Source of the DNA: an uncultured virus (IMG/VR IMGVR_UViG_3300020045_010788)
Taxonomy: Duplodnaviria; Heunggongvirae; Uroviricota; Caudoviricetes
Strand: one strand, 5' to 3'
Length of the DNA: 20,000 nt
Virus record (IMG/VR): IMGVR_UViG_3300020045_010788
The translations under genes and the position numbers were made by a program. How positions within the stretch are numbered: position 1 is the first letter of the stretch; each line of letters opens with the position of its first letter. The notes beneath the pieces were generated by a model. That model was given only the letters and a program-made list of their open reading frames with translations, searched no databases and was not told the origin of the DNA. Below are positions 236 through 19,271 of the stretch, in pieces.

Positions 236-2757
236 CTTACCGGCAATTTAAACTGTTGAGCATATTGCAGTATTGAATTATCCTTTAAATTAAGTCCTAT
301 CGCTTCAATCATTCGACCAGCAATCCTTATCTTATCCTCATCCCTCCATTCCATTTCGACCGTTTCGCTTTCAGTTACGCTTGTTATAACGTTATCATCT
401 GAGTTATCTTGGTTAAAATCTACATAATTACCTAAAGACATATTGCCATTAACATAAGTAGAAGTTAATGTTTGCAATGTTGATACAGAACTAAAATCTA
501 AATAACTACTACTGCTTAATACCACTGGAGTTGAGAATGATCCTATAATATTTCCCGATAATCCACTATTATTAGTATAAACAACAATCCCATTCGTTAA
601 TACAATATATGCAACACGAAGATCAGGATAATTAATATTAGCATGAATATATCCGAATTGAACACATCCACATAACACATCGTTCAAAGTAGATAATATC
701 CCTATCCAACTACGATTAATAGATCTTAATAAAATAAAGTTCCCCGTTCCGCCTGTTTGCTTATAAATTCCCACCCCCGTAACACATGCATATATATTAC
801 CACTAGAATCGGCGGATAAGCCACTCCAAGCACGACTGGTTTGGCTTAAAGCCATAAAATTGCCCGTCCCGCCTGTTTGCTTATAAATATCACCACCTGA
901 AACACATGCGTAAATATCTCCATTTGGAGCAGAACATAGTCCATTCCAATATCTAGCTGTTTGGCTTAAAGCTATAAAATTACCGGTACCGCCTGTTTGC
1001 TTATAAATATCACCGTTTAAGACACATGCATAAATGTCGCCATTCGGGGCAGAACATAAGCCATTCCAAGCACGACTGGTTTGGCTTAAAGCCATAAAAT
1101 TGCCCGTCCCGCCTGTTTGCTTATAAATATCACCGTTTAAGACACATGCATAAATGTCGCCATTCGGGGCAGAACATAGTCCCCTCCAATTGCGACTCGT
1201 TTGAGACAATGGAGCGAAACTACCAATACCACCAGCCTGCCTATAAATATCTCCTCCAAATACACAGCTATAAATATCTGAATTAATTGGAGATTGACAT
1301 AATCCACACCAAGAAAGACCGTTTTCGTATAATGAATATTCACTATTATAATGACTGTATAAATTAATCCCTACACTATTTATATCATAATAAATATCCC
1401 CTAAATTAGAATTAGTAGAAGCTATCCCACTTAACTCAATCGCACTTATCTGATTATAAGCATCTCCTTCTTTTTTCACATTAATAAGCGCCGAAGTAGA
1501 ATACCCACTACTATTATTCTGAGGAATTGTAACCGTTGTTCCAAAAAGAAAATTACTAAATGAAAAATAACATATTAAATCGGCATCCTTATAAACCGAT
1601 ATGATTAAAGCCTTTGTTGCTAAAGAATATTCATATTCAATTGAAATATTATTAGACCCATACATTCCAGTAATAAATATGTTCGATAAATAATCATCTG
1701 AACTTGGAGAAATGCTAAGTATATTTCCCGTTAATACGGCGTTACCGGTTAATCCAATCATCGAAATAGTTGATCCGACGTACCCAGTTAATGATCCAGT
1801 AGAGACTAGGGTCGTTTTATTATAATTAGAATATAGTTTTAAAAACGACTTATTAAGAGCTATGTTATAATAAATTGAATAATACAACCGAGTATAATTA
1901 TTATTTATAAGGGTTACGCCATCTAAAAACGAAGTCCCGTCCTCAGTTATGTCTATAGTTGATATAGCTAACGTAGCCGATCCGCTAATCCCAGAATTCG
2001 CATATTCATTTATGGTTACACTCCCGCCAACAACCGTAGTTGTAGCATACGCCACCTTATTAATAAATCCGGTATCCTTATAAATATTAAATTCATATAA
2101 TAGCGTACTAATATTTAATGTTATCTTCCAATATAAGCTAAAGTAATCAGAATTGTCTTCTGTAATACCGGTTAAAACAAGATTGGATATTTGAGAGTAA
2201 ATATCACCTTTAATTATTATCGCAGAGGTGGCTCCAGCTTCTTTATAAATTTGGTTTAAATTTTCATCAATGTAATAATCAATGAATGGTTTGGTGGGGT
2301 AACGCAAATAGTTAAATTTAACGTATGTTGATCTTAATGGTTCAAATTGGATTTTACCTCCTCTTATCAAACAAATAGGATATTGGCTTGTAGGCATAAC
2401 AATAGAACTGCCAATTCTATCAGCATATTCCCCATCCGTAACTCTTGAAACTGGCCTATGATAAGTATTTGACCCAATGGTTTGAGGATATATGCAATTA
2501 CTCCAATAATAATAATTCGCAGGTAGATCGGATATTCCATTTGAATTTATAGCCATGTCAGGAGACAATGCAACTTTCATTCTCTCTATGACGTTTGTTA
2601 CTATTTGAGTACGCTCATACTGAGACCTCTCATCATCATAGAATTGTTGTTGGACTATTGGGGCGAGTTTATTAAAATCAGCAGCCGTAAAGCTATCTCC
2701 ATACTGCTCTTTATTGCATACAAACCAGATAAATTCTAGTAAATCCCAATTTGTCAT
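232..2757 (-). CDS. Virion ring/head-tail adaptor-like protein with a large internal insertion (beta-rich repeats plus 40-aa propeller repeats)
   Basis: N-terminal NKEQYG..FN..QQQF, LPANY, YLRYPTKP and C-terminal EW...IGLNLKD..I.QYAQ resemble Bacteroidota phage ring proteins. Likely start is ATG 2757, downstream of the promoter box at 2793-2800. Confidence 0.65.
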   Translation of the reverse strand: MTNWDLLEFIWFVCNKEQYGDSFTAADFNKLAPIVQQQFYDDERSQYERTQIVTNVIERMKVALSPDMAINSNGISDLPANYYYWSNCIYPQTIGSNTYHRPVSRVTDGEYADRIGSSIVMPTSQYPICLIRGGKIQFEPLRSTYVKFNYLRYPTKPFIDYYIDENLNQIYKEAGATSAIIIKGDIYSQISNLVLTGITEDNSDYFSLYWKITLNISTLLYEFNIYKDTGFINKVAYATTTVVGGSVTINEYANSGISGSATLAISTIDITEDGTSFLDGVTLINNNYTRLYYSIYYNIALNKSFLKLYSNYNKTTLVSTGSLTGYVGSTISMIGLTGNAVLTGNILSISPSSDDYLSNIFITGMYGSNNISIEYEYSLATKALIISVYKDADLICYFSFSNFLFGTTVTIPQNNSSGYSTSALINVKKEGDAYNQISAIELSGIASTNSNLGDIYYDINSVGINLYSHYNSEYSLYENGLSWCGLCQSPINSDIYSCVFGGDIYRQAGGIGSFAPLSQTSRNWRGLCSAPNGDIYACVLNGDIYKQTGGTGNFMALSQTSRAWNGLCSAPNGDIYACVLNGDIYKQTGGTGNFIALSQTARYWNGLCSAPNGDIYACVSGGDIYKQTGGTGNFMALSQTSRAWSGLSADSSGNIYACVTGVGIYKQTGGTGNFILLRSINRSWIGILSTLNDVLCGCVQFGYIHANINYPDLRVAYIVLTNGIVVYTNNSGLSGNIIGSFSTPVVLSSSSYLDFSSVSTLQTLTSTYVNGNMSLGNYVDFNQDNSDDNVITSVTESETVEMEWRDEDKIRIAGRMIEAIGLNLKDNSILQYAQQFKLPVR
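640..1311 (-). repeat. In-frame 120-bp (40-aa) tandem repeat, five full units and one partial (WxGLCSAPNGDIYACVxxGDIYKQTGGTGNFxALSQTxR)
   Basis: ACACA motif recurs at 782, 902, 1022, 1142, 1262; Trp codons at 706, 826, 946, 1066, 1186, 1309. Confidence 0.95.
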
Positions 2758-2792
2758 ATTTGCGAGTGTGAGTGGGCGTTGAAAATTCACAC

Positions 2793-2800
2793 CAAATATA
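2793..2800 (-). promoter_or_regulatory. Bacteroidota-type -7 promoter box TATATTTG
   Basis: Matches TAnnTTTG, ~36 nt upstream of ATG 2757. Confidence 0.6.
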
Positions 2801-2855
2801 AACAAATTATTTTATATATAATTTATTTGTTATCTCAAGAATCTATCCCTTAGAA

Positions 2856-3071
2856 TTATTGATCAAATTCCCAAATCAAATCCTCCAATGTCTTTTTCTC
2901 TGATTGATACACTGTTTTTAATAGCATTGCAGATCCCGACCTTTTTGACATTAGCTCAAGCATATTCACTATGGCCTCGACAACTCGCATCCGATCTAAT
3001 GTAATTTGTTTTCTTATTGTATTCATAGTATTTAGTTTTAAAAGGCCTATCAAATTCTCTATTTGGTTCAA
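2856..3071 (-). CDS. Hypothetical protein
   Basis: ORF co-oriented with the operon; start uncertain. Confidence 0.5.
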   Translation of the reverse strand: MNQIENLIGLLKLNTMNTIRKQITLDRMRVVEAIVNMLELMSKRSGSAMLLKTVYQSEKKTLEDLIWEFDQ

Positions 3072-3080
3072 TTGTTTGGT

Positions 3081-3653
3081 TTATGTATGATGTTTATTAT
3101 TTTCATTTAAAGTGTATTCATTTAAATGACACTCAGAACACAATGAAACAAGTTCAAATAAATACTCATGATCTAAATGAGCATAAGTCAAATGATGAAC
3201 TTCTGTAGCCGCCTTATGGCATATAACACAAATATAATCATCTCTTTTTAATATTATTGATCTTAATGCCTTCCATTCAGGAGCCTTAATGTAATTGTCA
3301 TATTTTGCCCTAAATGATATATGAAATTTATCCTTTATGGATTTTATGAAATCATAAACCTGGCTGTCGGATTGTTCTATATATTTATGATATTCATCCA
3401 AGCTCCTTACAGGTATTTTATTCAAATCATATTCTGACTGCTTAAGCGGCTTATTATTTAATTCCTTGCATTTTTTACAATATTGTCTCAATTGCTTCGA
3501 CCCGTTACTTATAGTAAATAATACTAAATGATAATCATGCTCGCATTCTATTTCATCAACGTCATACCTGCTGCATAAATCACACCATTTAATTTTTCTA
3601 TTACGAAACAACCGATCCGATAATAGACCACCACATTTACAATACTCACTCAT
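3081..3653 (-). CDS. HNH endonuclease with N-terminal Zn-binding motifs
   Basis: W..LR..IL.RD.Y.CxxC...ATEVHHLTY...LVSLCxxCH; additional Cys pairs near the N-terminus. Confidence 0.85.
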   Translation of the reverse strand: MSEYCKCGGLLSDRLFRNRKIKWCDLCSRYDVDEIECEHDYHLVLFTISNGSKQLRQYCKKCKELNNKPLKQSEYDLNKIPVRSLDEYHKYIEQSDSQVYDFIKSIKDKFHISFRAKYDNYIKAPEWKALRSIILKRDDYICVICHKAATEVHHLTYAHLDHEYLFELVSLCSECHLNEYTLNENNKHHT

Positions 3654-5367
3654 ACCATCGCTCTATTGGTTCATTGTCTCTTATCTTTTCAGCCAAAACA
3701 GGCAATCCGGTATCATCAATATAAAAACTATAATTATCAAAGTCTATACCTCGCGAATAATCGCAGCTTACGACCGAGTGGCTTTGCGACCCCTTTTCCT
3801 TTGATACAGATATAACAGCTTCAGCTTTTTTCATAATATAACTACCCAAATGGCCTGTAGCAAAATTATCGTTTTTATTCTGGTGTATAACTGTACTTAT
3901 ATGACAATTATATTGCTTTGTCCATCTAAGAATCAACCCAACTACTCGCGTAGCTTCATCTTCATCGTTTATTGCATTTGCCAAATCAGCAACTCCGTCA
4001 ATTGCAACAAATCCAACCTCATTAAATACAGACAATGCATATTCTATAATGTCACATCTTTCAATTGGAGAATGCTCTCGCAAATTAAATCCTAAAAAAT
4101 GTTCTGGTTTTTGAGAGGCAAGCCTTTCTATTCGTTTCATTACATTAGCAGAGTCGTAAAGGCCTTGTTCTGTATCAAAATATAATATACATCTCTTATT
4201 TTCAGGTAATTGAGCATAAAATTTATTGTAAAGATTGCCATTTTTAACTAAGCATCCTGACAACATAGAAAGATTAAATGTTTTACGAGATTTCGCTTTT
4301 CCAATTATAGCGCTAAAATTGCCTAATGTTAATAGCCTCTTTCTAATAGTAGAAGTCCCGTTTGAATCTGAAATATAAAGAATAACTGGAGGTCGTTCAA
4401 TTTCAATGTCGGTATCAATCATAGACCTTCTTAATATTTCCTTTTTCTCATCAATAGTTTTTTCTGTTTGGCTCGTTTTCGGTTCGATTTTATGAGGCTT
4501 TAACTCTAATTTGTCGGATAAATATTTTGCACATGCCTTAAAGTCTCCATTATATTCCAATAAAGCCATAACTTGAAAAGGCGTATATCCTGAATTCTCA
4601 TCAAAGGGAAAGGCGTTTGCCGAGAAAACATAAAACACATTTGGGGCGACCTTTCCTAAAGTAGCCGAAATACCTTTAACCTTACCTGGCCTAGTCCATT
4701 CACCATGCTTCAATTCCTTCCATCCGTGTGACGAAAGGATATTTTTCATATCCGCTATTGCATCAGAGGTTTTATTGTAAATATCACCAGGCTTATCCGT
4801 TTGCTCATATTCATTAGGAATGATCCTTGTCCATGTATTAAAGCTTTTTGCTATTTCAAGTAAATAAATTCGTTCCTCTTTTGTTATTGTCGGAATGTTG
4901 AATATATCGTTTTTAATCAATAAATATCCGGGTGATGGGTATGCAATAAAATAACCTCCATCTCCTCTAGTTTCAAAAATAGCATCAGGTATCCATTTTC
5001 CTTGCTCATTTTTCTTTGGCACGCTTGCCAGTTTCTGATTGCCTTCAATAAAATCACACTTCCAAAGAATATGATAACCTCCGTTCTGCGTTTGCTCAAT
5101 AGGAAATTTATATTTGTCATATAACTCTTTTATCTTTTCAATAAATTCAGTCAATCTTTGCTTAGCCATTCCATCGTGAGAATCCAAATCTAAGCATTCC
5201 AATCCTTTGTTTAAAATACCGCATTTAATACCAATTGCCTTTGCGTTAACAAAATCATTAATACCAAAATGCTTATTCCACGTACTTTTAACAAATGGCG
5301 TTTTATCTAAATTACACGGTATTATCTCATACCCTGAATCGATATATTTTTTAATTATGTCTATCAT
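3646..5367 (-). CDS. Bifunctional primase-polymerase fused to an AAA/RecA-like helicase
   Basis: N-terminal CLDLD, TQNGGYH, ETRGDGGYFIAYPS (Prim-Pol); C-terminal Walker A GKAKSRKT, YFDTEQ, IDGVAD, VIHQNK, GHLGS. Confidence 0.9.
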   Translation of the reverse strand: MIDIIKKYIDSGYEIIPCNLDKTPFVKSTWNKHFGINDFVNAKAIGIKCGILNKGLECLDLDSHDGMAKQRLTEFIEKIKELYDKYKFPIEQTQNGGYHILWKCDFIEGNQKLASVPKKNEQGKWIPDAIFETRGDGGYFIAYPSPGYLLIKNDIFNIPTITKEERIYLLEIAKSFNTWTRIIPNEYEQTDKPGDIYNKTSDAIADMKNILSSHGWKELKHGEWTRPGKVKGISATLGKVAPNVFYVFSANAFPFDENSGYTPFQVMALLEYNGDFKACAKYLSDKLELKPHKIEPKTSQTEKTIDEKKEILRRSMIDTDIEIERPPVILYISDSNGTSTIRKRLLTLGNFSAIIGKAKSRKTFNLSMLSGCLVKNGNLYNKFYAQLPENKRCILYFDTEQGLYDSANVMKRIERLASQKPEHFLGFNLREHSPIERCDIIEYALSVFNEVGFVAIDGVADLANAINDEDEATRVVGLILRWTKQYNCHISTVIHQNKNDNFATGHLGSYIMKKAEAVISVSKEKGSQSHSVVSCDYSRGIDFDNYSFYIDDTGLPVLAEKIRDNEPIERWYE

Positions 5368-6065
5368 TTAGATTTTGGTTTTAGCCAGTTATTTAAAGTT
5401 GTATTGAAAGATGAATATGTTTTTTTTGTGTAATTCTCCAAGTTTAAAATTGTATCTTTTATGTGGTCAATTGGGTACGACCTTCTATATTTTTCAAACA
5501 TCTCAACCGTAATTTGATCTTTTAGTTTTAATACCTTGTTCAGGGGTCGTTTATTTATATTGTTTTCAAATAGCCATTTTACAAAATGAGGATATTCAGA
5601 ATCAATGATTCCATCCACTTTTTTAATTTCTGAATCATAAAAAGCCGAATATGTATATATATTATATTCTTTCCTCTCCTCTCCTGCTTCGAGGGGGGCT
5701 AAAGGGAGGCTAAAGGGAGGCTTTTTATTACCTCGCCCACCCATTGATCCAGCGATACTTAGCTTATGCCTATACATTAAATGATCTAATATTCTTTGTG
5801 AATAAATACCTATTCCGTCTTCCATAAAAAGGCCTATTTTTATATAGAAACTGAGATATTCGTTAAGCTTGTCTTTAGGCACGTTTAAGCCAAGCGAAAG
5901 CCCGGCTAAAGCCTCCCTTTTTATATATCCATTAGATTCACAGAGGCTCTCTAATAGAGCAAAAAAAATAGCATATCCTTCCCATCCGTATTCAGCCCTA
6001 ACCTCCAATATTTTATGATCATTTCTTGCGTTATAATCATGGTCGAAATAAAATGAATTTTTCAT
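5364..6065 (-). CDS. Phage replication initiator-like protein (DUF4373/Lin1244-type N-terminus)
   Basis: YFDHDYNARND.KI...YGWEGY.IFF.LLE.L motif, low-complexity linker, C-terminal TLNNWL; lies directly upstream of the primase-helicase. Confidence 0.8.
   Translation of the reverse strand: MKNSFYFDHDYNARNDHKILEVRAEYGWEGYAIFFALLESLCESNGYIKREALAGLSLGLNVPKDKLNEYLSFYIKIGLFMEDGIGIYSQRILDHLMYRHKLSIAGSMGGRGNKKPPFSLPLAPLEAGEERKEYNIYTYSAFYDSEIKKVDGIIDSEYPHFVKWLFENNINKRPLNKVLKLKDQITVEMFEKYRRSYPIDHIKDTILNLENYTKKTYSSFNTTLNNWLKPKSK
5691..5920. repeat. Iteron-like 11-mer AAAGGGAGGCT (two tandem exact, one degenerate, one inverted) inside the initiator gene
   Basis: Exact copies at 5701-5711 and 5712-5722, degenerate at 5691-5700, inverted AGCCTCCCTTT at 5910-5920. 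Confidence 0.55.
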
Positions 6066-6864: not shown

Positions 6865-7035
6865 ATTAATTTGAATGAAATTTACTTAAAAAATGCCTAT
6901 AGTCAGACCTATTAAAGAATCTCTGATTTACCTGGGATTGTTCTTCAATCCTCGGACTTTGATTATGTATTTCCGTGTAATGCTGGGCTTGCAAAATATG
7001 TAATGCCTTTTTCACTTAAAAATATATTCATAGCG

Positions 7036-7067
7036 CAAATATATGTTATGTATCTGATATATTACAA
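7036..7067 (-). promoter_or_regulatory. Leftward promoter (TTG ... TATATTTG)
   Basis: CAAATATA at 7036-7043 and CAA at 7065-7067, 21-nt spacer; sits at the strand-switch point. Confidence 0.6.
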
Positions 7068-7086
7068 TCTAAATGGATAATTTTTT

Positions 7087-7165
7087 GATGATAAATATCA
7101 TCAATATTAGATGATATAAATCACTTATAATAATTTGTAAGCTTATTTTATATGTAATTACTTTG
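7087..7165 (+). promoter_or_regulatory. Two palindromic operators plus a rightward promoter in front of the cassette array
   Basis: GATGATAAATATCATC 7087-7102, GATGATATAAATCACT 7110-7125, TTG ending 7137, TTACTTTG ending 7165; same spacing as 13459-13537. Confidence 0.7.
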
Positions 7166-7202
7166 TGTTTATATGAATAAATACAATATTTAAATACAAA
7201 AC

Positions 7203-7475
7203 ATGGATAATCATAACATTGTCAACGAAGAAAAAGGAAATGACGTTAACCACGTGTTAGCACCTGTTAATGTTATGCAGTTAATCTACGACTTTAATAT
7301 GGCAATAATCTTTTCAGATTTGATACCAGAAAAAACGTGTGGATATTTTGCAGACATTATGAATAAAGTGCTTACTAAACATAACTTATTAGCCGAGTAT
7401 CAAAATTACGTTAAAAGATTCGCAGAGTTGCCGCCGTCTTTCGAATGGCAGCTAACGTTGGGGTATGAAATGTAG
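7203..7475 (+). CDS. Cassette 1 hypothetical protein
   Basis: ORF spans the half-site CACGTGTTAGC (GTT 7256) and ends inside site 1. Confidence 0.6.
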   Translation: MDNHNIVNEEKGNDVNHVLAPVNVMQLIYDFNMAIIFSDLIPEKTCGYFADIMNKVLTKHNLLAEYQNYVKRFAELPPSFEWQLTLGYEM

Positions 7476-7573
7476 CGGTTTACGGGCTGCTTTCTTATCC
7501 ACCGAACAGAAACTAAAAGCGAGGCAGTATGATTGCACAACCACTGCACCCGCTATATTTTATACCCGTTGTT
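7454..7573. repeat. attC-like hairpin site 1
   Basis: AACG..GGGTATGAAATGTAGCGG / CCGCTATATTTTATACCC..TGTT. Confidence 0.85.
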
Positions 7574-7614
7574 GTGCGTATGTACTTTATTATTAACAAT
7601 TAAAATATATCAAA

Positions 7615-7914
7615 ATGATTACACAAGGAAATTGGATTGCTCGAATTGATGAAATGGGAATAGATATTATTGAAGAAAAAACGGGATTCGGCGTAGTATG
7701 GCTTGGCAACGAAGAAGAATTAAAAGCGTGTGAGTATCCATTAGAAACAGCAAAAGCTAATGCTCAATTAATATCTGCCGCCCCTGACCTACTAAATGCA
7801 ATACAGTATTATTTAGATGTTCTTGAAGAAGTAAGAGGGAAAGAATTTAGTAAAAACTCTGACCATGTGCTTAAAAAAATGTTATATGCAGTAGCTAAAG
7901 CACGAGGCATTTAG
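7615..7914 (+). CDS. Cassette 2 phage protein (ANAxLIxAAPxLL motif family)
   Basis: TQGNW N-terminus and ANAQLISAAPDLL; paralog of cassette 4. Confidence 0.8.
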   Translation: MITQGNWIARIDEMGIDIIEEKTGFGVVWLGNEEELKACEYPLETAKANAQLISAAPDLLNAIQYYLDVLEEVRGKEFSKNSDHVLKKMLYAVAKARGI

Positions 7915-7924
7915 TATTACGTAC

Positions 7925-8048
7925 AACGGTGGACGTATGGTGGCGTACCGGATTAAATAACGAAAAACTTATCAATTTATGACAAAGCAAATAGATACCT
8001 CCGAACTTTCGCATACCACTGAAACCGGTATGCACTATACGGCGTGTT
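7925..8048. repeat. attC-like hairpin site 2
   Basis: AACG..CGTATGGTGGCGTACCGG / CCGGTATGCACTATACG..TGTT. Confidence 0.85.
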
Positions 8049-8626
8049 ATAACCAGCCTTTTATTCTTGTTGGGTTTGAAGAAAGCCAGGCAATTACAAT
8101 AGAATTAAGGAAACGTGGATATAATGCTTTTTCATGTGACTTACAAGATTGTTCAGGCGGGCATCCAGAATGGCATTTAAAAATGGATATATTCTTAGCT
8201 ATTAATATGCGAAAATGGGGCATGATAATATTGCACCCGCCTTGCACTTTTACTGCACTTTGTGGGAACCGATGGTACTGGAATAGCTTTGAAAGAGTTG
8301 ACGGCGTTGAATTATGCCAAAAAGCTTGGAATGAAGCTTGCAAAGTATGTGACCATGTGGCTTTAGAACAGCCAAAAACTATAATGCAAAGATATATAGG
8401 CAAAAGAAGCCAAACTATACACCCATGGCAATTTGGACACGGTGAAACAAAAGAAACTTGGCTTTGGCTTAAAAACTTACCTGAATTAAAACCTACCAAC
8501 ATTGTTGAAGGTAGAGAAAATTTAATTTGGAAAATGCCACCATCAAAAAACCGTCAAAAATTACGTTCAAAAACTTACCCTGGAATCGCTGCCGCAATCG
8601 CTGAACAATGGACGGCTGTCTTTTAA
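7979..8626 (+). CDS. Cassette 3 phage DNA cytosine methyltransferase-like protein
   Basis: ILVGFEESQ, AFSCDL, HPPCT, LEQP, PWQFGH...K.T.LWLKNLP, RSKTYPGIA.AIA.QW; start codon lies inside site 2. Confidence 0.8.
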   Translation: MTKQIDTSELSHTTETGMHYTACYNQPFILVGFEESQAITIELRKRGYNAFSCDLQDCSGGHPEWHLKMDIFLAINMRKWGMIILHPPCTFTALCGNRWYWNSFERVDGVELCQKAWNEACKVCDHVALEQPKTIMQRYIGKRSQTIHPWQFGHGETKETWLWLKNLPELKPTNIVEGRENLIWKMPPSKNRQKLRSKTYPGIAAAIAEQWTAVF

Positions 8627-8636
8627 GGTTGGTTAT

Positions 8637-8765
8637 AACGATTCCGCAGCTATGAGCGGTTGCGGACTTCGGAGCTGCGTTTTTATCGCACGACAAAAAC
8701 CAGCGTAATGCGAGACGAAATGTTGAATGCCAGTACTACACCCGCAATCGCTTATAGGTGCTGTT
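8637..8765. repeat. attC-like hairpin site 3
   Basis: AACG..CTATGAGCGGTTGCGG / CCGCAATCGCTTATAG..TGTT. Confidence 0.85.
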
Positions 8766-8804
8766 ATAAACAGGATTTATTTATTCACAATTAATTATAA
8801 AACA

Positions 8805-9092
8805 ATGTCAAACGAAGCGCATACACAAGGTAATTGGAAATATAGACCCGATGTAGTAGGTAATAGTTTCTATATAGAAACTGTTGACCAATCTCACGAT
8901 AGGACATTTATTGGCGAAATAGGCGGAGGACTTCAATCAAAATCAGAAATTGAAGCAAATGCAAAACTTGTATCTACTGCTCCTGAACTTTTAGAAGCGT
9001 GTCAAAGAGCATTAGAAGTTTTGGAATCTGAACAAATATTTGGACAAGCAAGATTATTATTAGCAGTTGCCATTAAGAAGGCTGTTTCTTAG
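8805..9092 (+). CDS. Cassette 4 phage protein (ANAxLVxxAPELL motif family)
   Basis: HTQGNW...EANAKLVSTAPELLEA; likely ATG 8805 after an A/T-rich leader. Confidence 0.8.
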   Translation: MSNEAHTQGNWKYRPDVVGNSFYIETVDQSHDRTFIGEIGGGLQSKSEIEANAKLVSTAPELLEACQRALEVLESEQIFGQARLLLAVAIKKAVS

Positions 9093-9101
9093 CTTGTTTA
9101 T

Positions 9102-9222
9102 AACGTTGAGCATAAGATTAGTGCGGGATTTCAAAGCTGCGAACCTATCCCACGCTAAAAACTTGATAAAAGGAAGCAGTAACAATATGGCGCTTAACCC
9201 CGCATTAATTTTATGCTGTGTT
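9102..9222. repeat. attC-like hairpin site 4
   Basis: AACG..GCATAAGATTAGTGCGGG / CCCGCATTAATTTTATGC..TGTT. Confidence 0.85.
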
Positions 9223-9245
9223 ATAGCCAGTTAATTATTAATCAA

Positions 9246-9422
9246 ATGGACGAAATAATAAATGATGGTGAAAAGTATTATTTAAGAGCAAGAATGGATA
9301 ATACATTAGTTTATGAGAGTGCTTCGGGTGGAGATGCAATTGTAATTGTTAATGCCGAAATAATATGTACAATAAGGGCTATTTCAACCGGAAATGTCGG
9401 AATGGTTGACGTTATGGTTTAA
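9246..9422 (+). CDS. Cassette 5 small hypothetical protein
   Basis: Fills the cassette; ATG 9246 (alternative 9213 inside the site). Confidence 0.65.
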   Translation: MDEIINDGEKYYLRARMDNTLVYESASGGDAIVIVNAEIICTIRAISTGNVGMVDVMV

Positions 9423-9430
9423 TTGGCTAT

Positions 9431-9552
9431 AACGTTGAGCGTATGTGCTGTGTGGGAATACGAATAACGTATTTATCCACATACACCAACGCTAAATACG
9501 AGAAATGAACTTTAATAACTTACTGAAACCCACATAGCATATACGCTGTGTT
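9431..9552. repeat. attC-like hairpin site 5
   Basis: AACG..AGCGTATGTGCTGTGTGGG / CCCACATAGCATATACGCT..TGTT. Confidence 0.85.
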
Positions 9553-9567
9553 ATATACAGGCTTTTT

Positions 9568-10203
9568 ATGAAGATTTTAAATTTATACGCAGGAATTGGA
9601 GGCAATAGGCTACTTTGGGGCGATGACCACGAAATAACAGCTATTGAGTATAATTCAGAAATAGCAAAAGAATATCAAAGGTTATTTCCAAATGATACAG
9701 TAATTGTAACCGATGCCCATAAATATTTAATTGACCATGTTTTAGACGGATGGGATTTTATTTGGGCTTCGCCTCCATGCCCAAGCCATAGCCGAATAAA
9801 TACCGATGGAAACCATGCACCACGTTACCCGGAGATGACATTATACCAAGAAATAATAATGCTAAGTAATAACTGGTATAAAGGCAAATGGGTAATTGAA
9901 AATGTAATACCTTATTACGAACCAATCATAAGACCTAATGTAGAAATAGATAGACATTATTTCTGGTGTAATTTTAGGGTAAATAAAATTGAAGTTAAAG
10001 CCGAAAAAAGCATTAAAGACCAAAGCGGTACAAATGGAAGATTTGGTTTTAACCTTAAAGGAATTGACATTAAAGCCAATAAAAGACAAGTATTAAGAAA
10101 CTTGGTTAACCCTGAAATTGGCTTACACTTTTTAAATCGAGCTTTTGAAATTGCAGAAAGTAACAAATCAAAGCAGAAAACTTTATTCGATGCAGTTTTT
10201 TAA
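9568..10203 (+). CDS. Cassette 6 C5 DNA cytosine methyltransferase
   Basis: Motif I LNLYAGIGG, motif IV WASPPC, motif VI IENV, C-terminal LRNLVNPEIG. Confidence 0.88.
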   Translation: MKILNLYAGIGGNRLLWGDDHEITAIEYNSEIAKEYQRLFPNDTVIVTDAHKYLIDHVLDGWDFIWASPPCPSHSRINTDGNHAPRYPEMTLYQEIIMLSNNWYKGKWVIENVIPYYEPIIRPNVEIDRHYFWCNFRVNKIEVKAEKSIKDQSGTNGRFGFNLKGIDIKANKRQVLRNLVNPEIGLHFLNRAFEIAESNKSKQKTLFDAVF

Positions 10204-10213
10204 GCTTGTATAT

Positions 10214-10335
10214 AACGGTTTCCGCTATGAGTAGTGGCGGTTTTGGAACTACTCACTATCAAAATACAACAAATGAATATAGAAAGCACAACACAACAAT
10301 TACCACTTAACCCGCCATTACTTATAGCGAGTGTT
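10214..10335. repeat. attC-like hairpin site 6
   Basis: AACG..CGCTATGAGTAGTGGCGG / CCGCCATTACTTATAGCG..TGTT. Confidence 0.85.
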
Positions 10336-10665
10336 AGTGGCTGTACTTCTTGGGATGAATGGTTAGAAAAAACCGAAGCATCATTAAAAGATATTGGATA
10401 CAGAAAATACAAGCAGAATTTAAAGCACGAAGATTTTGCTTACTGGAAAGAGTTTGAAGGTTATCAGGTTGGTTTATTTTTCTATGATTTTAGAAAACAT
10501 CAAAATCAATTTAACTTACCCGAAAGAATTGGTGTTCAATTTGAATGTATGTTTACTGATATTGACGAAAGAATTGATTTGTCAGTTAGTAAGGATATTT
10601 CGTTAGAACAATTTGAAAATATGGCTAAAACTTTCATTGATGCTATGTTTCAGTATTGCCACTAA
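10273..10665 (+). CDS. Cassette 7 hypothetical protein
   Basis: Starts inside site 6; its stop TAA is part of the TAAC of site 7. Confidence 0.75.
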   Translation: MNIESTTQQLPLNPPLLIASVSGCTSWDEWLEKTEASLKDIGYRKYKQNLKHEDFAYWKEFEGYQVGLFFYDFRKHQNQFNLPERIGVQFECMFTDIDERIDLSVSKDISLEQFENMAKTFIDAMFQYCH

Positions 10666-10786
10666 CGGTGGCGGTATGAAAGCGTGCCGATTTGCGAGCT
10701 GTAAACTATCAAATTTTGACAAATTATGAACGGAGCTACACACTTTAATAAACCACTACACTCGGCATGTTTTATGACCGCGTGTT
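10664..10786. repeat. attC-like hairpin site 7
   Basis: AACG..GCGGTATGAAAGCGTGCCGA / TCGGCATGTTTTATGACCGC..TGTT. Confidence 0.85.
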
Positions 10787-10840
10787 AGCGGTATGGCATT
10801 TGTTTAATTCATTATAAATTAACATTTTAAATTTAAAAAC

Positions 10841-11302
10841 ATGAACATTTTAAAACAAATTAAATCAATTTGCGATGGTATTGAGTATTCAAGAGATATA
10901 CCTGAAGAAGCTAAAAAACTTGCTAAAGAAAATGGCATAGTTGTAATTGTTGGCGGTAGCGATGACTTAATGTACGCATACGGAGCTGAAAGTTATTTAA
11001 CTGATTATTGCGAACACTCCGAAGGTTGGGATGGTTGTGATCTTACAAAACACGCAAGCGACAAACAATTATTGAAAGAAGCCAAACAATTAGGATTAAA
11101 GATTTTTTGGTGCGGAACAATTGAAAAAACAGGCGAGCAAATTGAAGATTACAAAACAGCCGAAAGCGGAGCATTTAGCTATAAAGTAGCTGACAATATT
11201 GAACATCTAAATTTTAAAGTAATGGAAGATGAAGATGTTTATTGCACAGGTATAATTATCAAATTGCCTGACGGATTTATCAGTTCAAAAGATGACGAGT
11301 AG
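10841..11302 (+). CDS. Cassette 8 hypothetical phage protein
   Basis: 153-aa ORF with AKENGIVVIVGGSDDLM and EDEDVYCTGII motifs. Confidence 0.8.
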   Translation: MNILKQIKSICDGIEYSRDIPEEAKKLAKENGIVVIVGGSDDLMYAYGAESYLTDYCEHSEGWDGCDLTKHASDKQLLKEAKQLGLKIFWCGTIEKTGEQIEDYKTAESGAFSYKVADNIEHLNFKVMEDEDVYCTGIIIKLPDGFISSKDDE

Positions 11303-11336
11303 TCTCAATGCGGTAGGCTGTTTTATGCTTACCGCT

Positions 11337-11424
11337 AACGGTGGTTGTATGCGTTCGGTTTTGCTTGCATACGACTATCAATTTACACGGAATTACCCAG
11401 CAAAACTGACGTATACAACGTGTT
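11337..11424. repeat. attC-like hairpin site 8 (short, 88 bp)
   Basis: AACG..GTTGTATGCGTTCGGTTTTGCT / AGCAAAACTGACGTATACAAC..TGTT. Confidence 0.85.
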
Positions 11425-11468
11425 ATCGCTTCGGTTTTTATTACTAATCTTTTAAACAATAAATAATT

Positions 11469-11954
11469 ATGGCAACCAAAATTTTAAGTTACGAAGAAAT
11501 AATTGAACAAGCCCGCTCATCTTGGGGTGGAAAAATTGGAGATGAACGAGCCGAATCAGTAAAAAAAATACTCGATACAAGGCTTGAAAATTACCATAAA
11601 ATTACCGGCATTTCCAAAGATGAAATTCTAATTGCTTTTGAAAAGGCAAGAAATGTAAATACCGTAAACTTTTACCAAGAAAGTAATTTTCCACTTTTGG
11701 AAGATGTTCAAGTATTTGAAACACTCGAAGATTACAAAAAAGCATTTCCATCCGGTAAATATATTTGCCCTTCATGTGGAAAAGAAAGCACAGACCCTTA
11801 CGAGTGTTCACAAGAAAAATGTGACTGGAAAGTTTATGGATTGTTTGGTGATTTAGGGAAAGGAATAAAAGTAATTATCAAAGATAAATTTCTTGAACAT
11901 CCTGTTCCTATGAGAATTTTTAAACCTGTCGAACTGGTTACGGTCGCTTCCTAA
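11469..11954 (+). CDS. Cassette 9 hypothetical protein with Zn-ribbon-like Cys cluster
   Basis: NFYQESNFP, CPSCG...PYEC....CDWKVYGLF. Confidence 0.8.
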   Translation: MATKILSYEEIIEQARSSWGGKIGDERAESVKKILDTRLENYHKITGISKDEILIAFEKARNVNTVNFYQESNFPLLEDVQVFETLEDYKKAFPSGKYICPSCGKESTDPYECSQEKCDWKVYGLFGDLGKGIKVIIKDKFLEHPVPMRIFKPVELVTVAS

Positions 11955-11964
11955 ACTGATCGAT

Positions 11965-12085
11965 AACGATGGCAATAAAAAACGAAAGGGATTTAAAACC
12001 GCTTCTTTATCCACCGTTACAGACCTTGCAAACAGCTACATCGCTTGAATTACAGATAATACCCTTTTGTTTTTTATTGCGTGTT
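11965..12085. repeat. attC-like hairpin site 9
   Basis: AACG..GCAATAAAAAACGAAAGGG / CCCTTTTGTTTTTTATTGC..TGTT. Confidence 0.85.
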
Positions 12086-12123
12086 AGCAAACGTATTTTA
12101 TTAATAACTAAATAATTATCAAA

Positions 12124-12351
12124 ATGGAAGAAAAATTTAACGAGATACTTCAAAAGCATGAAATTAGGTTAATTGACTTTGAAAGAGAAAAAAACGAAAT
12201 GGCTCAAAAATGCCTATTTTTAAAAGAACACGGATTTAACAAAGAACTTGAATGGCTAAACCACGAAAGACAATCAAAAATAGATTTATTTTTAAACTAT
12301 CGTGATGCAATAAAAGAATTAAGAGAGCTTCTAAATGCGTGGAACTCTTAA
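12124..12351 (+). CDS. Cassette 10 small helical hypothetical protein
   Basis: ORF fills the cassette. Confidence 0.75.
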   Translation: MEEKFNEILQKHEIRLIDFEREKNEMAQKCLFLKEHGFNKELEWLNHERQSKIDLFLNYRDAIKELRELLNAWNS

Positions 12352-12361
12352 TATGTTTGCT

Positions 12362-12482
12362 AACGTTTTGCATAAGACCAGTAGCGGAATAGGAAGCAGT
12401 ACACTATCAACCGTTACACACTCAATAAAATGTACTGCACTAACATACACCACTGAAACCGCTATTGGTTTTATGCGGTGTT
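12362..12482. repeat. attC-like hairpin site 10
   Basis: AACG..GCATAAGACCAGTAGCGG / CCGCTATTGGTTTTATGC..TGTT. Confidence 0.85.
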
Positions 12483-12497
12483 AGCAAATCGTTTATT

Positions 12498-12779
12498 ATG
12501 ACAACAATTGATGAAGAGCAATTAAAATTAGAAATTGCACACATATTTGAAAGTGGAGCAAACGAAATCAGAATTTTAGAAATGGTTAAGAGCTTTGTTA
12601 ATAGCCGAAATATTATTAATCAAAACAAGCCTCAATTACCATTAGAACGCATAAAAACTATGGCACTTGATTGGGCTAAAGATAGAAGTGTTGGCAATGC
12701 TGAACAGGATGATGAATGCAGATACGACTACGAATGTGGTATGCTATCTGCTCGGAGCATTCTTTTAAATGTTTGCTAA
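12498..12779 (+). CDS. Cassette 11 hypothetical protein
   Basis: ATG 12498; its stop TAA is part of the TAAC of site 11. Confidence 0.75.
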   Translation: MTTIDEEQLKLEIAHIFESGANEIRILEMVKSFVNSRNIINQNKPQLPLERIKTMALDWAKDRSVGNAEQDDECRYDYECGMLSARSILLNVC

Positions 12780-12899
12780 CGTTAAATGTTTGTGCAGTTG
12801 GGGATAAAAACCACTGCACTATCAAAAATAGTAGAAACATAATAAATAGATACACAGATGAACACACCACAAACACCCCAATTGCATAAACATAGTGTT
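12778..12899. repeat. attC-like hairpin site 11
   Basis: AACG..ATGTTTGTGCAGTTGGGG / CCCCAATTGCATAAACAT..TGTT. Confidence 0.85.
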
Positions 12900-13181
12900 A
12901 GCCGTTCGGCATTTTTAAAGTTAAAATTTCCATCACTGCCTTATTGTGAGTTTGGTTTAAAATCAGGTAGTTCAACTAAATGGAACGAATCTTGGCACTA
13001 TAAAAATGCAAGTTCAGGCGTTCAGGTAAATGCATTATGGTATGATGATGAAACGGTATCAATAGGTGTTTATGACCCTCGAATTAAAAACAAATTTGAA
13101 GTTAATAAAACCGTTTTTGACAAATCAGGAAACTTCAATCAAGAAATTTTAGAAATGTATTGCCGTCGTTTTTTATGCTGA
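12858..13181 (+). CDS. Cassette 12 hypothetical protein
   Basis: Starts in the loop of site 11; no usable Met after the GTT. Confidence 0.75.
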   Translation: MNTPQTPQLHKHSVSRSAFLKLKFPSLPYCEFGLKSGSSTKWNESWHYKNASSGVQVNALWYDDETVSIGVYDPRIKNKFEVNKTVFDKSGNFNQEILEMYCRRFLC

Positions 13182-13210
13182 CGGCTAACTCGTTTATATA
13201 CGCAATAGCC
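13175..13210. other. Terminal half-site (attI candidate): ATGCTGACGGCTAAC-TCGTTTATATACGC
   Basis: Has the cassette-12 complementary flank and AAC, but reads AACT rather than AACG and has no matching right arm. Confidence 0.5.
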
Positions 13211-13229
13211 ACAATAGTTAACTATCAGT

Positions 13230-13451
13230 ATGATAATAAATAAACCTATTGAAATCATATATGCTATTTCAGAAATAGCAGGATATGGTTTTGGAAAAGA
13301 CAAATTGCTTTATAATTTAAAAACGAAGCACATTAAGAAGCAGTGTTACAATAATGGTTCCATTGGATATTGGTTAAATGGCAAATTTTATTCATTGAAA
13401 AAATTAAGACCAATGTTAACCAAATATATTGAACCAAAAAAGGTCTTTTAA
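13230..13451 (+). CDS. Small basic hypothetical protein next to the array end
   Basis: 73 aa, Lys and aromatic rich (YNNGSIGYWLNGKFYSLKKLR). Confidence 0.75.
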   Translation: MIINKPIEIIYAISEIAGYGFGKDKLLYNLKTKHIKKQCYNNGSIGYWLNGKFYSLKKLRPMLTKYIEPKKVF

Positions 13452-18511: not shown

Positions 18512-18658
18512 TACTATTCCCAATGCAGGAAAGAGCAAAGGCTTTGTTTTATACTATATTTATAAATAGATGGTTTTAAAACTTAATTGGAAATGAAAAA
18601 TCGATAGGGGAAGGCGAAAACCTTTAAAAGAGTAGCCAATATATAAATACATACAGAT

Positions 18659-18928
18659 ATGTTTATTTTAAGAAGAATCACATCGGAATCAATTGAAATT
18701 AACACATGCTTAGGAATAAGCTATGTAATGATTTTGAAAGAAAGAAACAATGATGAATTTGAAAAAGTGGCCAAATCCATGAAATGGGATGATGCTGACA
18801 TGACAAAAGACATGTACGGCTTTCTTACCTATAATAATGGAGGAGAAACAATGCCATTGTATCAAAAATCTCATTATTTTATTATGGCAAGTGATGGTAA
18901 AACAGTAGCTAACATCACAAACAAGTAG
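18659..18928 (+). CDS. Hypothetical phage protein
   Basis: 89-aa ORF ending YFIMASDGKTVANI. Confidence 0.75.
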   Translation: MFILRRITSESIEINTCLGISYVMILKERNNDEFEKVAKSMKWDDADMTKDMYGFLTYNNGGETMPLYQKSHYFIMASDGKTVANITNK

Positions 18929-19008
18929 ATGTGTATGGCGGGTGGGCTTTTATTTTTTTCTTCGCACACGCAGGAACTAAAATACGAGCTATTCACCCGC
19001 TTGTAGTT

Positions 19009-19130
19009 AACGGTCGCAGGTTTGACCAGTAAGGGATTACGGGCTTCGCTCCTGTCGAAATATCCCAAAGCTGATGCGAGATATAACGTTGCAATTAATC
19101 ACGAAACCTTTATTGGTTATAGCTTGTGTT
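19009..19130. repeat. attC-like hairpin site 12, separate from the main array
   Basis: AACG..CAGGTTTGACCAGTAAGGG / CCTTTATTGGTTATAGCTTG-TGTT; 122 bp; ATA-N6-GTT. Confidence 0.75.
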
Positions 19131-19271
19131 AGCAAATCGGCTTTTATTAATCTAAAAATAAGAATATTATGATGAAAACTTATGTGTTAATGGTTTCGGA
19201 AAGGTTTCCGCAAACCCACAAACGTGTTAGGCGGTCGTTATTTATTTTAAACACTTAAAAACTAATATTAT

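What the first reader, a model, noticed from the sequence alone, without database searches (positions are those of the whole stretch)
7256..13189. Phage-borne integron-like cassette array with a non-canonical attC-like site family and no integrase in view
Seen: 12 single ORFs alternate with 11 hairpins, all bounded by AACG...TGTT, 120-129 bp long (one 88 bp). Their 16-22 bp stems differ in sequence but keep pairing, with a right-side WWA-N6-GTT and a left-side AAC-N7-11-TWW. Known: integron attC sites have AAC/GTT cores, one gene per cassette, and are recombined as folded ssDNA by IntI tyrosine recombinases. Inference: this is a site-specific gene capture and shuffling platform for phage early accessory genes, using a recombinase encoded elsewhere in the phage or by the host. 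I cannot confirm from here that it is undescribed.
Basis: partly seen in the sequence, partly recalled or inferred. Interest (0 to 1): 0.95.

Follow-up and report, generated by a model that had tools for sequence, protein, structure and literature searches.

The report
Integron-like gene cassette array in phage
This phage keeps eleven small early genes, two of them DNA methyltransferases, as swappable units joined at folded-hairpin recombination sites, a gene-shuffling system that works like a bacterial integron but uses other sites and another recombinase.

Summary
Eleven covarying hairpins of about 122 nt (one of 88 nt), each TAACG...GTGTTA, alternate with single ORFs at 7453-12900.

- A twelfth hairpin lies at 19008-19131.
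- The array ends at 13186 in a hairpin-less docking site. The same motif sits beside a recombinase gene in Bacteroidota genomes.
- The bases after each GTTA are complementary to the bases before the next TAAC, across the ORF. This is the diagnostic end rule of integron cassettes.

The family is large: 317 matches in 74 viral loci and 204 in 80 Bacteroidota-group genome loci, with chromosomal arrays of over 100 sites. Homology between phages breaks exactly at the cores.

The linked recombinase is Xer/IntI-like but lacks the IntI-specific insertion. It is absent from this window and from 34 of 40 viral records.

It works like an integron, yet two of its defining features fail (the R-box consensus, and the IntI-specific domain in the linked recombinases). 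One short member appears in print as a phage attC that IntI1 did not recombine (PMC9892861). My searches found no description of the family.

Earlier notes of this scan report the same system on other DNA.

The parts
7203..7475 (+). First ORF (90 aa) ahead of hairpin 1. It belongs to the backbone or is a cassette without a recognisable left end. Its stop lies inside the 5' arm of hairpin 1.
   Evidence: No Pfam or PHROG hit.
7453..7574 (+). Hairpin 1 (TAACG...GTTGTTG)
   Evidence: (101.9 bits)
7615..7914 (+). Cassette ORF, 99 aa, phrog_1273 (function unknown)
7924..8049 (+). Hairpin 2 (CAACG...GTGTTA)
   Evidence: (111.3 bits)
8030..8626 (+). Cassette ORF, DNA methyltransferase (phrog_757, E 6e-53). 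Its ATG lies in the 3' arm of hairpin 2. Homologues are cassettes in other arrays (L020, L052, L066).
8636..8766 (+). Hairpin 3
   Evidence: (83.2 bits)
8805..9092 (+). Cassette ORF, 95 aa, phrog_1273. Paralogue of 7615-7914.
9101..9223 (+). Hairpin 4
   Evidence: (110.6 bits)
9213..9422 (+). Cassette ORF, 69 aa or shorter, no family
9430..9553 (+). Hairpin 5
   Evidence: (121.2 bits)
9568..10203 (+). Cassette ORF, C-5 cytosine DNA methyltransferase (PF00145, phrog_363). A homologue is a cassette in L041.
10213..10336 (+). Hairpin 6
   Evidence: (112 bits)
10273..10665 (+). Cassette ORF, 130 aa. It starts in the loop of hairpin 6.
10663..10787 (+). Hairpin 7
   Evidence: (111.4 bits)
10841..11302 (+). 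Cassette ORF, 153 aa, phrog_25176 (function unknown)
11336..11425 (+). Hairpin 8, the short (88-nt) form
   Evidence: (68.3 bits). Short forms of 80-90 nt recur in the family.
11469..11954 (+). Cassette ORF, 161 aa, no family
11964..12086 (+). Hairpin 9
   Evidence: (108.2 bits)
12124..12351 (+). Cassette ORF, 75 aa
12361..12483 (+). Hairpin 10
   Evidence: (120.4 bits)
12499..12779 (+). Cassette ORF, about 93 aa (the longer reading starts at TTG 12465 inside hairpin 10)
12777..12900 (+). Hairpin 11. The same hairpin lineage occurs in L001 and L014 with other flanks.
   Evidence: (111.1 bits)
12858..13181 (+). Cassette ORF, 107 aa. It starts in the loop of hairpin 11. Its first ~15 residues are coded by the hairpin and are shared with an otherwise unrelated ORF in L001.
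13186..13203 (+). Docking (attI-like) half-site, TAACTCGTTTATATACGC, that closes the array. It has no 3' arm.
   Evidence: The same motif lies between the last hairpin and the recombinase gene in L139, L155, L160 and L191. The regex gives 10 hits in 2.18 Mb, all after the last hairpin.
19008..19131 (+).
   Evidence: (67.5 bits)

Best explanation
**What it is.** The region 7453-13203 is an array of eleven mobile gene cassettes, closed by a docking site. It belongs to an integron-like site-specific recombination system of Bacteroidota and their phages.

**The site.** Each recombination site is an imperfect hairpin of about 122 nt with these parts:
- an outer box, nnnnnnTAAC / GTTAnnnnnn;
- a short asymmetric spacer;
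- an inner box, TATG / TTATA;
- transition-type mispairs at fixed positions, read as G.T on the + strand and A.C on the other;
- a large loop holding a conserved TATC.

**Shown.**
- Exchange happens at the TAAC and GTTA cores.
- The hairpin travels with the segment that follows it on the modelled strand. A phage cassette is therefore hairpin plus gene, whereas a chromosomal cassette of the same family is gene plus hairpin, as in integrons.
- The array ends in a hairpin-less site that is conserved beside the recombinase gene elsewhere.

**Inferred.**
- A compact Xer/IntI-like tyrosine recombinase binds the folded site and the docking site, and exchanges strands at TAAC. It is encoded next to such arrays in Bacteroidota chromosomes and in a minority of phages.
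- This phage fragment encodes no such enzyme, so its array is served in trans by a host copy, a co-infecting phage or an unseen part of its own genome.
- The cargo here serves early host takeover and restriction evasion. It comprises two DNA methyltransferases and nine small ORFs with no assigned function (three fall in PHROG families of unknown function).
For: **Structure.** There are 26 consensus pairs, 17 with compensatory changes, and three G.T positions kept in 10-11 of 11 sequences.

**Cassette end rule.**
- In the window, the right end of hairpin i is complementary to the left end of hairpin i+1 for 2-7 nt beyond GTT/AAC (6-7 nt in nine of the eleven). It is the best partner in every row.
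- At least 6 nt of complementarity is found in 97 of 182 viral cassettes, against 3 of 182 own-hairpin pairs and 54 of 3619 random pairs.
- The same holds in 64 of 97 genomic cassettes, against 4 of 97 own-hairpin pairs.

**Breakpoints.**
- An L050/L014 cassette is 95% identical from the GTGTTA core to the TAACG core, between unrelated hairpins.
- An L066/L006 block runs from one TAACG to the next TAACG.
- Among 338 HSPs, endpoints pile up at AAC -1/-2/0 (197, 92 and 68) and at GTT +3/+4/+5 (163, 45 and 39). 130 HSPs cover exactly one hairpin in both loci.

**Linkage.** Of 138 homologous cassette pairs in different viral loci, 5 share the upstream hairpin at 80% identity or more and 0 share the downstream one. 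Two chromosomal pairs behave the same way.

**Docking site.**

**Recombinase.**
- Its gene lies at the docking end of arrays in L132, L139, L155, L160, L164, L169, L171, L187 and L191, and in phage loci L011, L060, L077 and L192.
- The best family hits are XerA/integron-integrase and IntI, all below their cut-offs.
- Phage and chromosomal forms are 32% identical, E 1e-51.

**Accessory nature.** Primase relatives lack the array and its genes. The methyltransferase cassettes recur as cassettes in unrelated arrays.
Against: - No recombination was observed. All evidence is comparative.
- No recombinase lies in the 20-kb window, and no whole genome is held.
- 34 of 40 element-bearing viral records have no PF00589 gene, including 17 of the 20 that are at least 90% complete. 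Action in trans is therefore assumed, not shown.
- 85 of 182 viral cassettes do not show the end rule at 6 nt or more. Some of these will be missed hairpins or multi-gene cassettes.
- Hairpin-only homology blocks (130 of 338) and the L050/L014 case show exchange at both cores. A strict one-core integron mechanism does not predict this.
- The reactive strand is unknown. Both strands fold: the + strand is more stable in 9 of 12 sites by about 1 kcal/mol on average.
- Chromosomal and phage hairpins share only 2 HSPs at 80% identity or more, so host-phage cassette traffic is not shown.
- IntI1 did not recombine the one short family member tested in print (PMC9892861, section 3.4).
Confidence: 0.75

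Rival explanations
1. The hairpins are only RNA elements of the early polycistronic transcript (terminators, RNase targets, mRNA stabilisers or translation starts) and do not recombine.
For: - In phages the modelled strand is the sense strand in 179 of 182 cassettes, so the G.T positions would be G.U pairs in the mRNA.
- 50 of 182 longest ORFs start inside the upstream hairpin.
- In the window three ORFs start in a loop or a 3' arm.
Against: - In chromosomal arrays the same elements are antisense to the genes. For example, ORFs share the element's strand in 0 of 10 cassettes in L154, 0 of 8 in L199 and 0 of 7 in L189.
- An RNA role does not explain the ORF-spanning end complementarity.
- It does not explain the breakpoints at the cores.
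- It does not explain the hairpin-less docking site or the linked recombinase.
- No Rfam family matches the region at E up to 1.
- A secondary RNA role is not excluded.
Confidence: 0.07
2. It is an ordinary integron fragment (a CALIN). The sites are true attC sites served by a canonical IntI integrase of the host.
For: - The layout, the AAC/GTT cores, the end rule and an attI-like site all match integrons.
- HattCI called one short member (L252 30001-30063) an attC (PMC9892861 supplement).
- Reviews list Bacteroidota among phyla with integrons (PMC8618304 passage).
Against: - Only 46 of 518 left ends fit RYYYAAC, and only 49 of 518 right ends fit GTTRRRY.
- The recombinases next to the arrays score 157-188 bits against the IntI cut-off of 265. 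They align to VchIntIA in two pieces that skip the IntI-specific insertion.
- That HattCI-called member was not confirmed by their INFERNAL step and gave no verified IntI1 recombinants (PMC9892861 section 3.4 and figure 2 legend).
- IntegronFinder 2.0 reported, for Bacteroidetes proper, only In0 and one complete integron (Salinibacter), besides integrons in Chlorobi and Ignavibacteriae (passage).
Confidence: 0.08
3. The hairpin itself is the mobile unit: a MITE-like or IS200/IS605-like element that inserts between genes at TAAC/GTTA targets. The genes are not cassettes.
For: - 130 of 338 homology blocks between contigs cover exactly one hairpin, from TAAC to GTTA, with unrelated flanks.
- 307 locus pairs share such blocks.
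Against: - It does not predict the roughly 10-15 nt inverted repeats that bracket each ORF.
- It does not predict gene-only blocks bounded by the cores.
- It does not predict the docking site and recombinase at one array end.
- A Y1 HUH transposase is present in only 2 of 40 records.
Confidence: 0.07

Closest known systems
Classical integrons (IntI, attI, attC cassettes), especially sedentary chromosomal integrons with homogeneous ~120-nt sites
   Same: - One-gene cassettes are separated by imperfect hairpins with AAC/GTT cores.
- The cassette end rule holds.
- A hairpin-less docking site lies beside a tyrosine recombinase gene.
- Chromosomal arrays can be very long, at least 148 sites in one genome.
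- Chromosomal cargo looks defence-related.
   Different: - The R-box consensus is not met.
- Fixed G.T/A.C mispairs take the place of clearly bulged bases.
- The loop is large and conserved.
- The recombinase lacks the IntI insertion. Its gene is co-oriented with the cassettes.
- Breakpoints occur at both cores.
- Phage cassettes carry the gene on the opposite side of the hairpin.
CALINs in virulent phages (Qi et al. 2023, PMC9892861; read: abstract, section 3.4, passages, supplement rows)
   Same: - Phage-borne attC-like sites flank orphan DNA methyltransferase genes.
- Their Polaribacter phage P12002L holds 8 matches to my model (E up to 0.01) among its methyltransferase and other small genes, six of them between annotated genes.
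- Their attC1 is one of those matches.
   Different: - They found 2 sites in that phage with canonical tools and treated them as ordinary attC.
- The family member (attC1) was the one site that IntI1 did not recombine.
- They do not report the family, its recombinase, its docking site or the chromosomal arrays in the parts I read.
PeSL mobile regulatory cassettes of T4-type phages (PMC2839356, PMC4122927; seen: search listing and the start of the abstracts only)
   Same: Repeated stem-loop motifs flank small variable early genes in phage hyperplastic regions and are proposed to mediate modular shuffling.
   Different: - As I recall, PeSLs are promoter-terminator motifs thought to act through homologous recombination.
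- Here the shared cores are 4-6 nt, the stems differ between sites, breakpoints are exact, and a site-specific recombinase and a docking site are linked.
Xer-dependent elements: CTX-phage folded attP and pdif modules (recalled, not checked in any call)
   Same: A Xer-type recombinase acts on a site made by folding single-stranded DNA, or on modules bracketed by inverted recombinase sites.
   Different: The array-linked enzyme scores far below the XerC and XerD cut-offs (about 155 bits against about 330). No dif-like 28-bp site was looked for.

Membership tests
Integron | Array of mostly single-ORF cassettes separated by imperfect palindromes with AAC...GTT cores | tested here: met
Integron | The cassette's two ends are complementary across the ORF (R'' matches the R' at the start of the same cassette) | tested here: met
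   In the window the next left end is the best partner in all 12 rows. 97 of 182 viral cassettes against 3 of 182 own-hairpin pairs. 64 of 97 genomic cassettes against 4 of 97.
Integron | attC R boxes fit RYYYAAC / GTTRRRY | tested here: not met
   46 of 518 and 49 of 518 distinct elements fit.
Integron | Unpaired central spacer and extrahelical bases that mark the reactive bottom strand | tested here: inconclusive
   There is an asymmetric spacer after the core, with fixed transition mispairs at arm positions 0-4, 11-12 and 16-17. G.T outnumbers A.C by 1237 to 267 and 872 to 145. On the complementary strand these appear as 1x1 mismatches. No conserved bulged base was seen.
Integron | IntI integrase carrying the IntI-specific additional domain | tested here: not met
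   None in the window. The array-linked recombinases score 157-188 bits against the TIGR02249 cut-off of 265, in two pieces. The alignment to 2a3v skips residues 181-241.
Integron | attI-type docking site between the integrase gene and the first cassette | tested here: met
   A conserved motif, TAACnnnT(T/G)T(A/G)TA(T/C)(A/T)CG, lies next to the recombinase gene in L139, L155, L160 and L191 and at window 13186. The motif was derived from 5 of its 10 hits.
Integron | Sites detected by the attC covariance model (IntegronFinder / HattCI+INFERNAL) | not testable with these tools
   That model is not on hand and Rfam holds none. In print, the P12002L member was called by HattCI only.
Integron | Sites recombined by an integron integrase | not testable with these tools
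   In print, P12002L_attC1 gave no verified IntI1 x attI1 junction (PMC9892861 section 3.4).
Xer/dif systems | The recombinase is XerC or XerD | tested here: not met
   151-161 bits against cut-offs of 330-335.
IS200/IS605-type hairpin elements | Co-occurrence with a Y1 HUH transposase | tested here: not met
   PF01797 is found in 2 of 40 viral records.
PeSL mobile regulatory cassettes | An early promoter joined to a terminator stem-loop in each repeat | not tested
   No Bacteroidota promoter model is on hand. The papers were seen only as a listing.
Known structured RNA families (Rfam 15) | Match to a curated covariance model | tested here: not met
   No match in 7000-13400 at E up to 1.

The most novel reading that the evidence does not exclude
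Bacteroidota and their phages run a second, independently specialised integron-type system. It consists of a compact Xer/IntI-like recombinase without the IntI insertion, a hairpin site of about 122 nt marked by fixed G.T/A.C mispairs, and a conserved docking site. Phages have turned the system around: the hairpin precedes the gene, and the hairpin loop can supply the start codon. It thus serves as a swap-shop for early counter-defence genes such as methyltransferases, while the hosts use the same chemistry to bank defence genes in arrays of over 100 cassettes.
Probability: 0.55. Interest if true: 0.9.

Novelty: new variant of a known kind. Interest (0 to 1): 0.8.

Why it matters
Integrons are the textbook gene-capture device of Proteobacteria. 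Surveys with the standard tools report almost none in Bacteroidetes (IntegronFinder 2.0 passage).

A parallel system in Bacteroidota and in hundreds of their phage contigs would have several consequences:
- It would widen the known reach of folded-DNA cassette recombination.
- It would show that the IntI-specific domain is not needed for a hairpin-based cassette platform.
- It would give a concrete mechanism for the mosaic early regions of these phages and for the spread of anti-restriction methyltransferases.
- It would offer a new structure-specific recombination tool.

The sites, the docking motif and the candidate enzyme are now defined well enough for a direct recombination assay.

Tried and rejected
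- **Whole genome of the window.** None is held.
- **Megablast of the window against phage records.** No match.
- **Distant blastn.** Only gene-level hits to Riemerella, Flavobacterium, Cellulophaga and other phages.
- **Exact 40-mer from the window's end in metagenome contigs.** No match, so I could not read beyond the window.
- **Rfam.** Nothing in the array. There are two weak hits elsewhere, below the gathering scores.
- **Ungapped arm comparison.** It failed because the spacers are asymmetric. I replaced it with an anchored gapped stem score.
- **nhmmer.** Alone it misses the short forms.
- **Sequencing runs.**
  - No RNA holder is listed. One freshwater DNA run holds a small share, 0.05 of the words.
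  - Laid, it gives short contigs 90-99% like parts of several cassettes and hairpins, with no piece spanning the region.
  - Two contigs begin to match at 10218, just after the TAAC of hairpin 6, with other letters before. I do not count this as evidence.
- **Host-phage cassette traffic.** Only 2 HSPs at 80% identity or more link 18 chromosomal loci to the viral set. I did not claim it.
- **7256 as an attI-like left boundary.** Rejected.
- **Promoter in the conserved TATC loop.** I looked by eye only and saw no fit to the recalled Bacteroidota -33/-7 consensus. It was not tested.
- **HUH transposase as the enzyme.** Rejected, 2 of 40 records.
- **Segment-wise identity by MAFFT.** It is noisy where cassette lengths differ, and I used only its two clean cases.

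Full report
**Context.** The window is phage-like.
- On the - strand lie a virion protein, an HNH endonuclease, a primase-polymerase/helicase and a replication initiator (232-6065).
- From 7203 a run of small + strand genes follows. It includes two DNA methyltransferases, an endonuclease VII-like gene and an exonuclease-like gene.
- No whole genome is held.
- No phage record matches at the DNA level.
- Distant hits are single genes of phages of Riemerella, Flavobacterium, Cellulophaga and others.

**Observation.**
- Eleven elements on the + strand run from TAACG to GTGTTA. They measure 120-129 nt and one measures 88 nt, and each lies between two ORFs.
- Aligned, they share little beyond T-N7-TAACGnT, TATG, GG, TATC, CC, TTATA and GTGTTA.
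- RNAalifold finds 26 pairs, and 17 of them show double compensatory changes. Three positions are kept as G.T in 10-11 of the 11 sequences.
- A covariance model built from them scores them at 68-121 bits on the + strand and at 25 bits or less on the - strand. It also finds a twelfth copy at 19001-19138.
- A strict pattern hits 4 times in the window and never in 200 shuffles.
- Folding single sequences as ssDNA is only moderately better than shuffles. The case rests on covariation, not on energy.

**The end rule.**
- The bases that follow each GTTA are the reverse complement of the bases that precede the next TAAC, on the far side of the ORF.
  - The contiguous extensions are 3, 2, 7, 7, 7, 7, 6, 7, 4, 7, 6 and 6 nt.
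  - In every row this is the best partner, while the two ends of one hairpin match far less.
- By eye the complementarity resumes after a conserved G (right side, CAG) opposite T (left side, TTG) and reaches about 15 nt.
- This is the signature of integron cassettes. The outer box of a site is split by recombination, so its two halves end up at the two ends of the cassette.
- In 182 non-redundant cassettes from 56 viral loci, 97 show 6 nt or more. The controls give 3 of 182 for own-hairpin pairs and 54 of 3619 for random pairs.
- In 97 cassettes from 30 genome loci, 64 show it, against 4 of 97 own-hairpin pairs.

**Spread.**
The model then found 317 matches at E up to 1e-3 in the 74 loci I gave it (0.99 Mb), usually several per locus on one strand.
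- In genome contigs it found at least 123 stretches, almost all labelled Bacteroidota or the Ignavibacteria/Chlorobi relatives, plus some off-size hits in other phyla that are probably chance. The model gave 204 matches at E up to 1e-4 in 80 loci.
One run of sites spans about 128 kb.
- Lengths are bimodal, around 121-123 nt and 85-88 nt.

**Breakpoints.**
- L050 and L014 share a cassette at about 95% nucleotide identity. The shared stretch begins at the GTGTTA core and ends at the TAACG core, between hairpins that are unrelated apart from the family positions.
- L066 and L006 share a block that begins at the TAACG of a hairpin, runs through the hairpin and its gene, and stops at the next TAACG.
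- I examined 338 HSPs of at least 85% identity and at least 120 nt between non-duplicate loci.
  - Endpoints pile up at AAC -1, -2 and 0 (197, 92 and 68) and at GTT +3, +4 and +5 (163, 45 and 39).
  - 130 of these HSPs cover exactly one hairpin in both loci.
- The right half of window hairpin 11 recurs in L001. Identity stops after GTGTTAG, and a different ORF follows that shares only the hairpin-coded N-terminus.

**Which neighbour travels with the hairpin.**
- Of 138 homologous cassette pairs in different viral loci, 5 share the upstream hairpin at 80% identity or more, and none shares the downstream one.
- The two informative chromosomal pairs behave the same way on the modelled strand.
- The unit is therefore the hairpin plus the segment 3' of it on that strand.
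- In viral loci the ORF is on that strand in 179 of 182 cassettes. In the large chromosomal arrays it is on the other strand, for example in all 10 cassettes of L154, all 8 of L199 and all 7 of L189.
- Chromosomal cassettes thus read gene-then-hairpin, as in integrons, and phage cassettes read hairpin-then-gene.
- Exchange at the other core also occurs, as the L050/L014 case and the hairpin-only blocks show. I cannot explain this by a strict one-core mechanism.

**Recombinase and docking site.**
- The window has no recombinase. Only 6 of 40 element-bearing viral records have a PF00589 gene, and only 3 of the 20 that are at least 90% complete.
- Where such a gene exists it tends to sit at the array.
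  - This holds for L011 8053-8886 and L077 5377-6048. It also holds for G032, where the gene lies at the other end of a 43-kb record from the L066 array, adjacent only if the record is circular, which I did not test.
  - In genomes, a gene 38-54% identical to L132 3928-5079 (62% over a cut-off fragment in L169) lies at one fixed end of the array. It points the same way as the cassette genes in L139, L155, L160, L164, L169, L171, L187 and L191.
- These proteins hit the XerA/integron-integrase model first and IntI second, all below the cut-offs, with XerC and XerD lower.
- The IntI matches come in two pieces, and the alignment to VchIntIA (2a3v) skips its residues 181-241. This is, as I recall, the IntI-specific insertion that contacts the extrahelical bases.
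- Phage and chromosomal forms are 32% identical over their full length.
- Between the last hairpin and the recombinase gene lies a conserved hairpin-less site, TAAC-N3-T(T/G)T(A/G)TA(T/C)(A/T)CG. The same motif closes the window's array at 13186.
- A regex drawn from five of these sites finds 10 hits in 2.18 Mb. All are on the array strand and all lie after the last hairpin (the window has one distant hairpin further on). The five new hits are in L013 and L020. By my estimate about 0.3 hits are expected by chance.

**Strand asymmetry.**
- With G.T and A.C scored alike, stems hold 1237 G.T against 267 A.C in 312 viral elements, and 872 against 145 in 203 genomic elements. They concentrate at arm positions 0-4, 11-12 and 16-17.
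- On the complementary strand these appear as regular 1x1 mismatches.
- Either reading could mark the reactive strand: wobble pairs on one strand, or unpaired marks on the other. I could not decide which.

**Accessory nature in this lineage.** Of 15 metagenome loci holding primase relatives at 45-66% identity, only one has hairpins (L253, the same contig as L001), and at another place. None holds any of the 12 array ORFs. The two methyltransferase cassettes and the last cassette have homologues in 7, 5 and 2 other array-bearing loci.

**Literature.**
- Qi et al. 2023 (PMC9892861; I read the abstract, section 3.4, passages and supplement rows).
  - They report CALINs in 17 phages, among them Polaribacter phage P12002L.
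  - My model finds 8 sites in that genome at E up to 0.01, most of them short forms of about 60-70 nt.
  - Their attC1 is the site at L252 30001-30063.
  - It was called by HattCI only, and it was the one site of six without verified IntI1 junctions.
- Reviews list Bacteroidota among integron-bearing phyla without detail.
- Smyshlyaev et al. (passage) note that the IntI insertion is not fully conserved in their integron-like subgroup.
- Six full-text searches returned no paper that describes this site family, its recombinase or its arrays. Supplements of the bioRxiv preprints were closed and may bear on this.
- Earlier notes of this scan describe the same system on other DNA. I read them after my own tests. 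They are not independent evidence.

**Verdict.**
- The array works like an integron, but it fails two defining integron features that I could test: the R-box consensus and the IntI domain.
- I therefore file it as a new variant of a known kind. The enzyme that serves this particular phage has not been seen.

Noticed in passing
window 12858-12905 and L001 12368-12415: Two otherwise unrelated ORFs start inside the loop of the same hairpin lineage. They share their first ~15 residues, which are coded by the hairpin's 3' arm. The hairpin can therefore donate a start codon and an N-terminal peptide to whatever gene follows it.
   Followed up: partly
window 18604-18638: Weak match to the DUF805b RNA motif (22.5 bits, gathering score 35.6, E 0.02), just upstream of ORF 18659-18928.
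   Followed up: no
window 7615-7914 and 8805-9092: Two cassettes of the same array carry paralogues of one unknown phage family (phrog_1273, E about 1e-13 each).
   Followed up: no
L132 15800-16765 and 18120-19085: Two IS110-family transposase ORFs with identical Pfam scores sit on the opposite strand inside the chromosomal cassette array. Repeated segments 98-100% identical at the protein level (tblastx) in L195 and L206 may be similar insertions.
   Followed up: partly
L013 (- strand) 2552, 2765, 3921; L020 17988, 18822: Several docking-type half-sites lie in tandem after the last hairpin, with ORF-sized gaps between them, as if some cassettes were bounded by hairpin-less sites.
   Followed up: no
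L252 (Polaribacter phage P12002L) 30001-39252: This isolated, published phage carries 8 sites of the family (E up to 0.01), all but one on the coding strand and several between DNA methyltransferase genes. Most are short forms of about 60-70 nt in which the large loop is replaced by 9-11 nt.
   Followed up: partly
G041 contig 4, about 2046808-2174249: One uncultured Bacteroidales genome holds a run of sites about 128 kb long beside a 480-aa recombinase ORF, plus further arrays elsewhere. At least 148 sites were scored before the cap.
   Followed up: partly
window 3081-3653 and L001 11711-12268: An HNH endonuclease gene follows the primase gene in both relatives (48% identity). In L001 the hairpins start right after it, and the first hairpin there lacks its outer 5' arm.
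   Followed up: no
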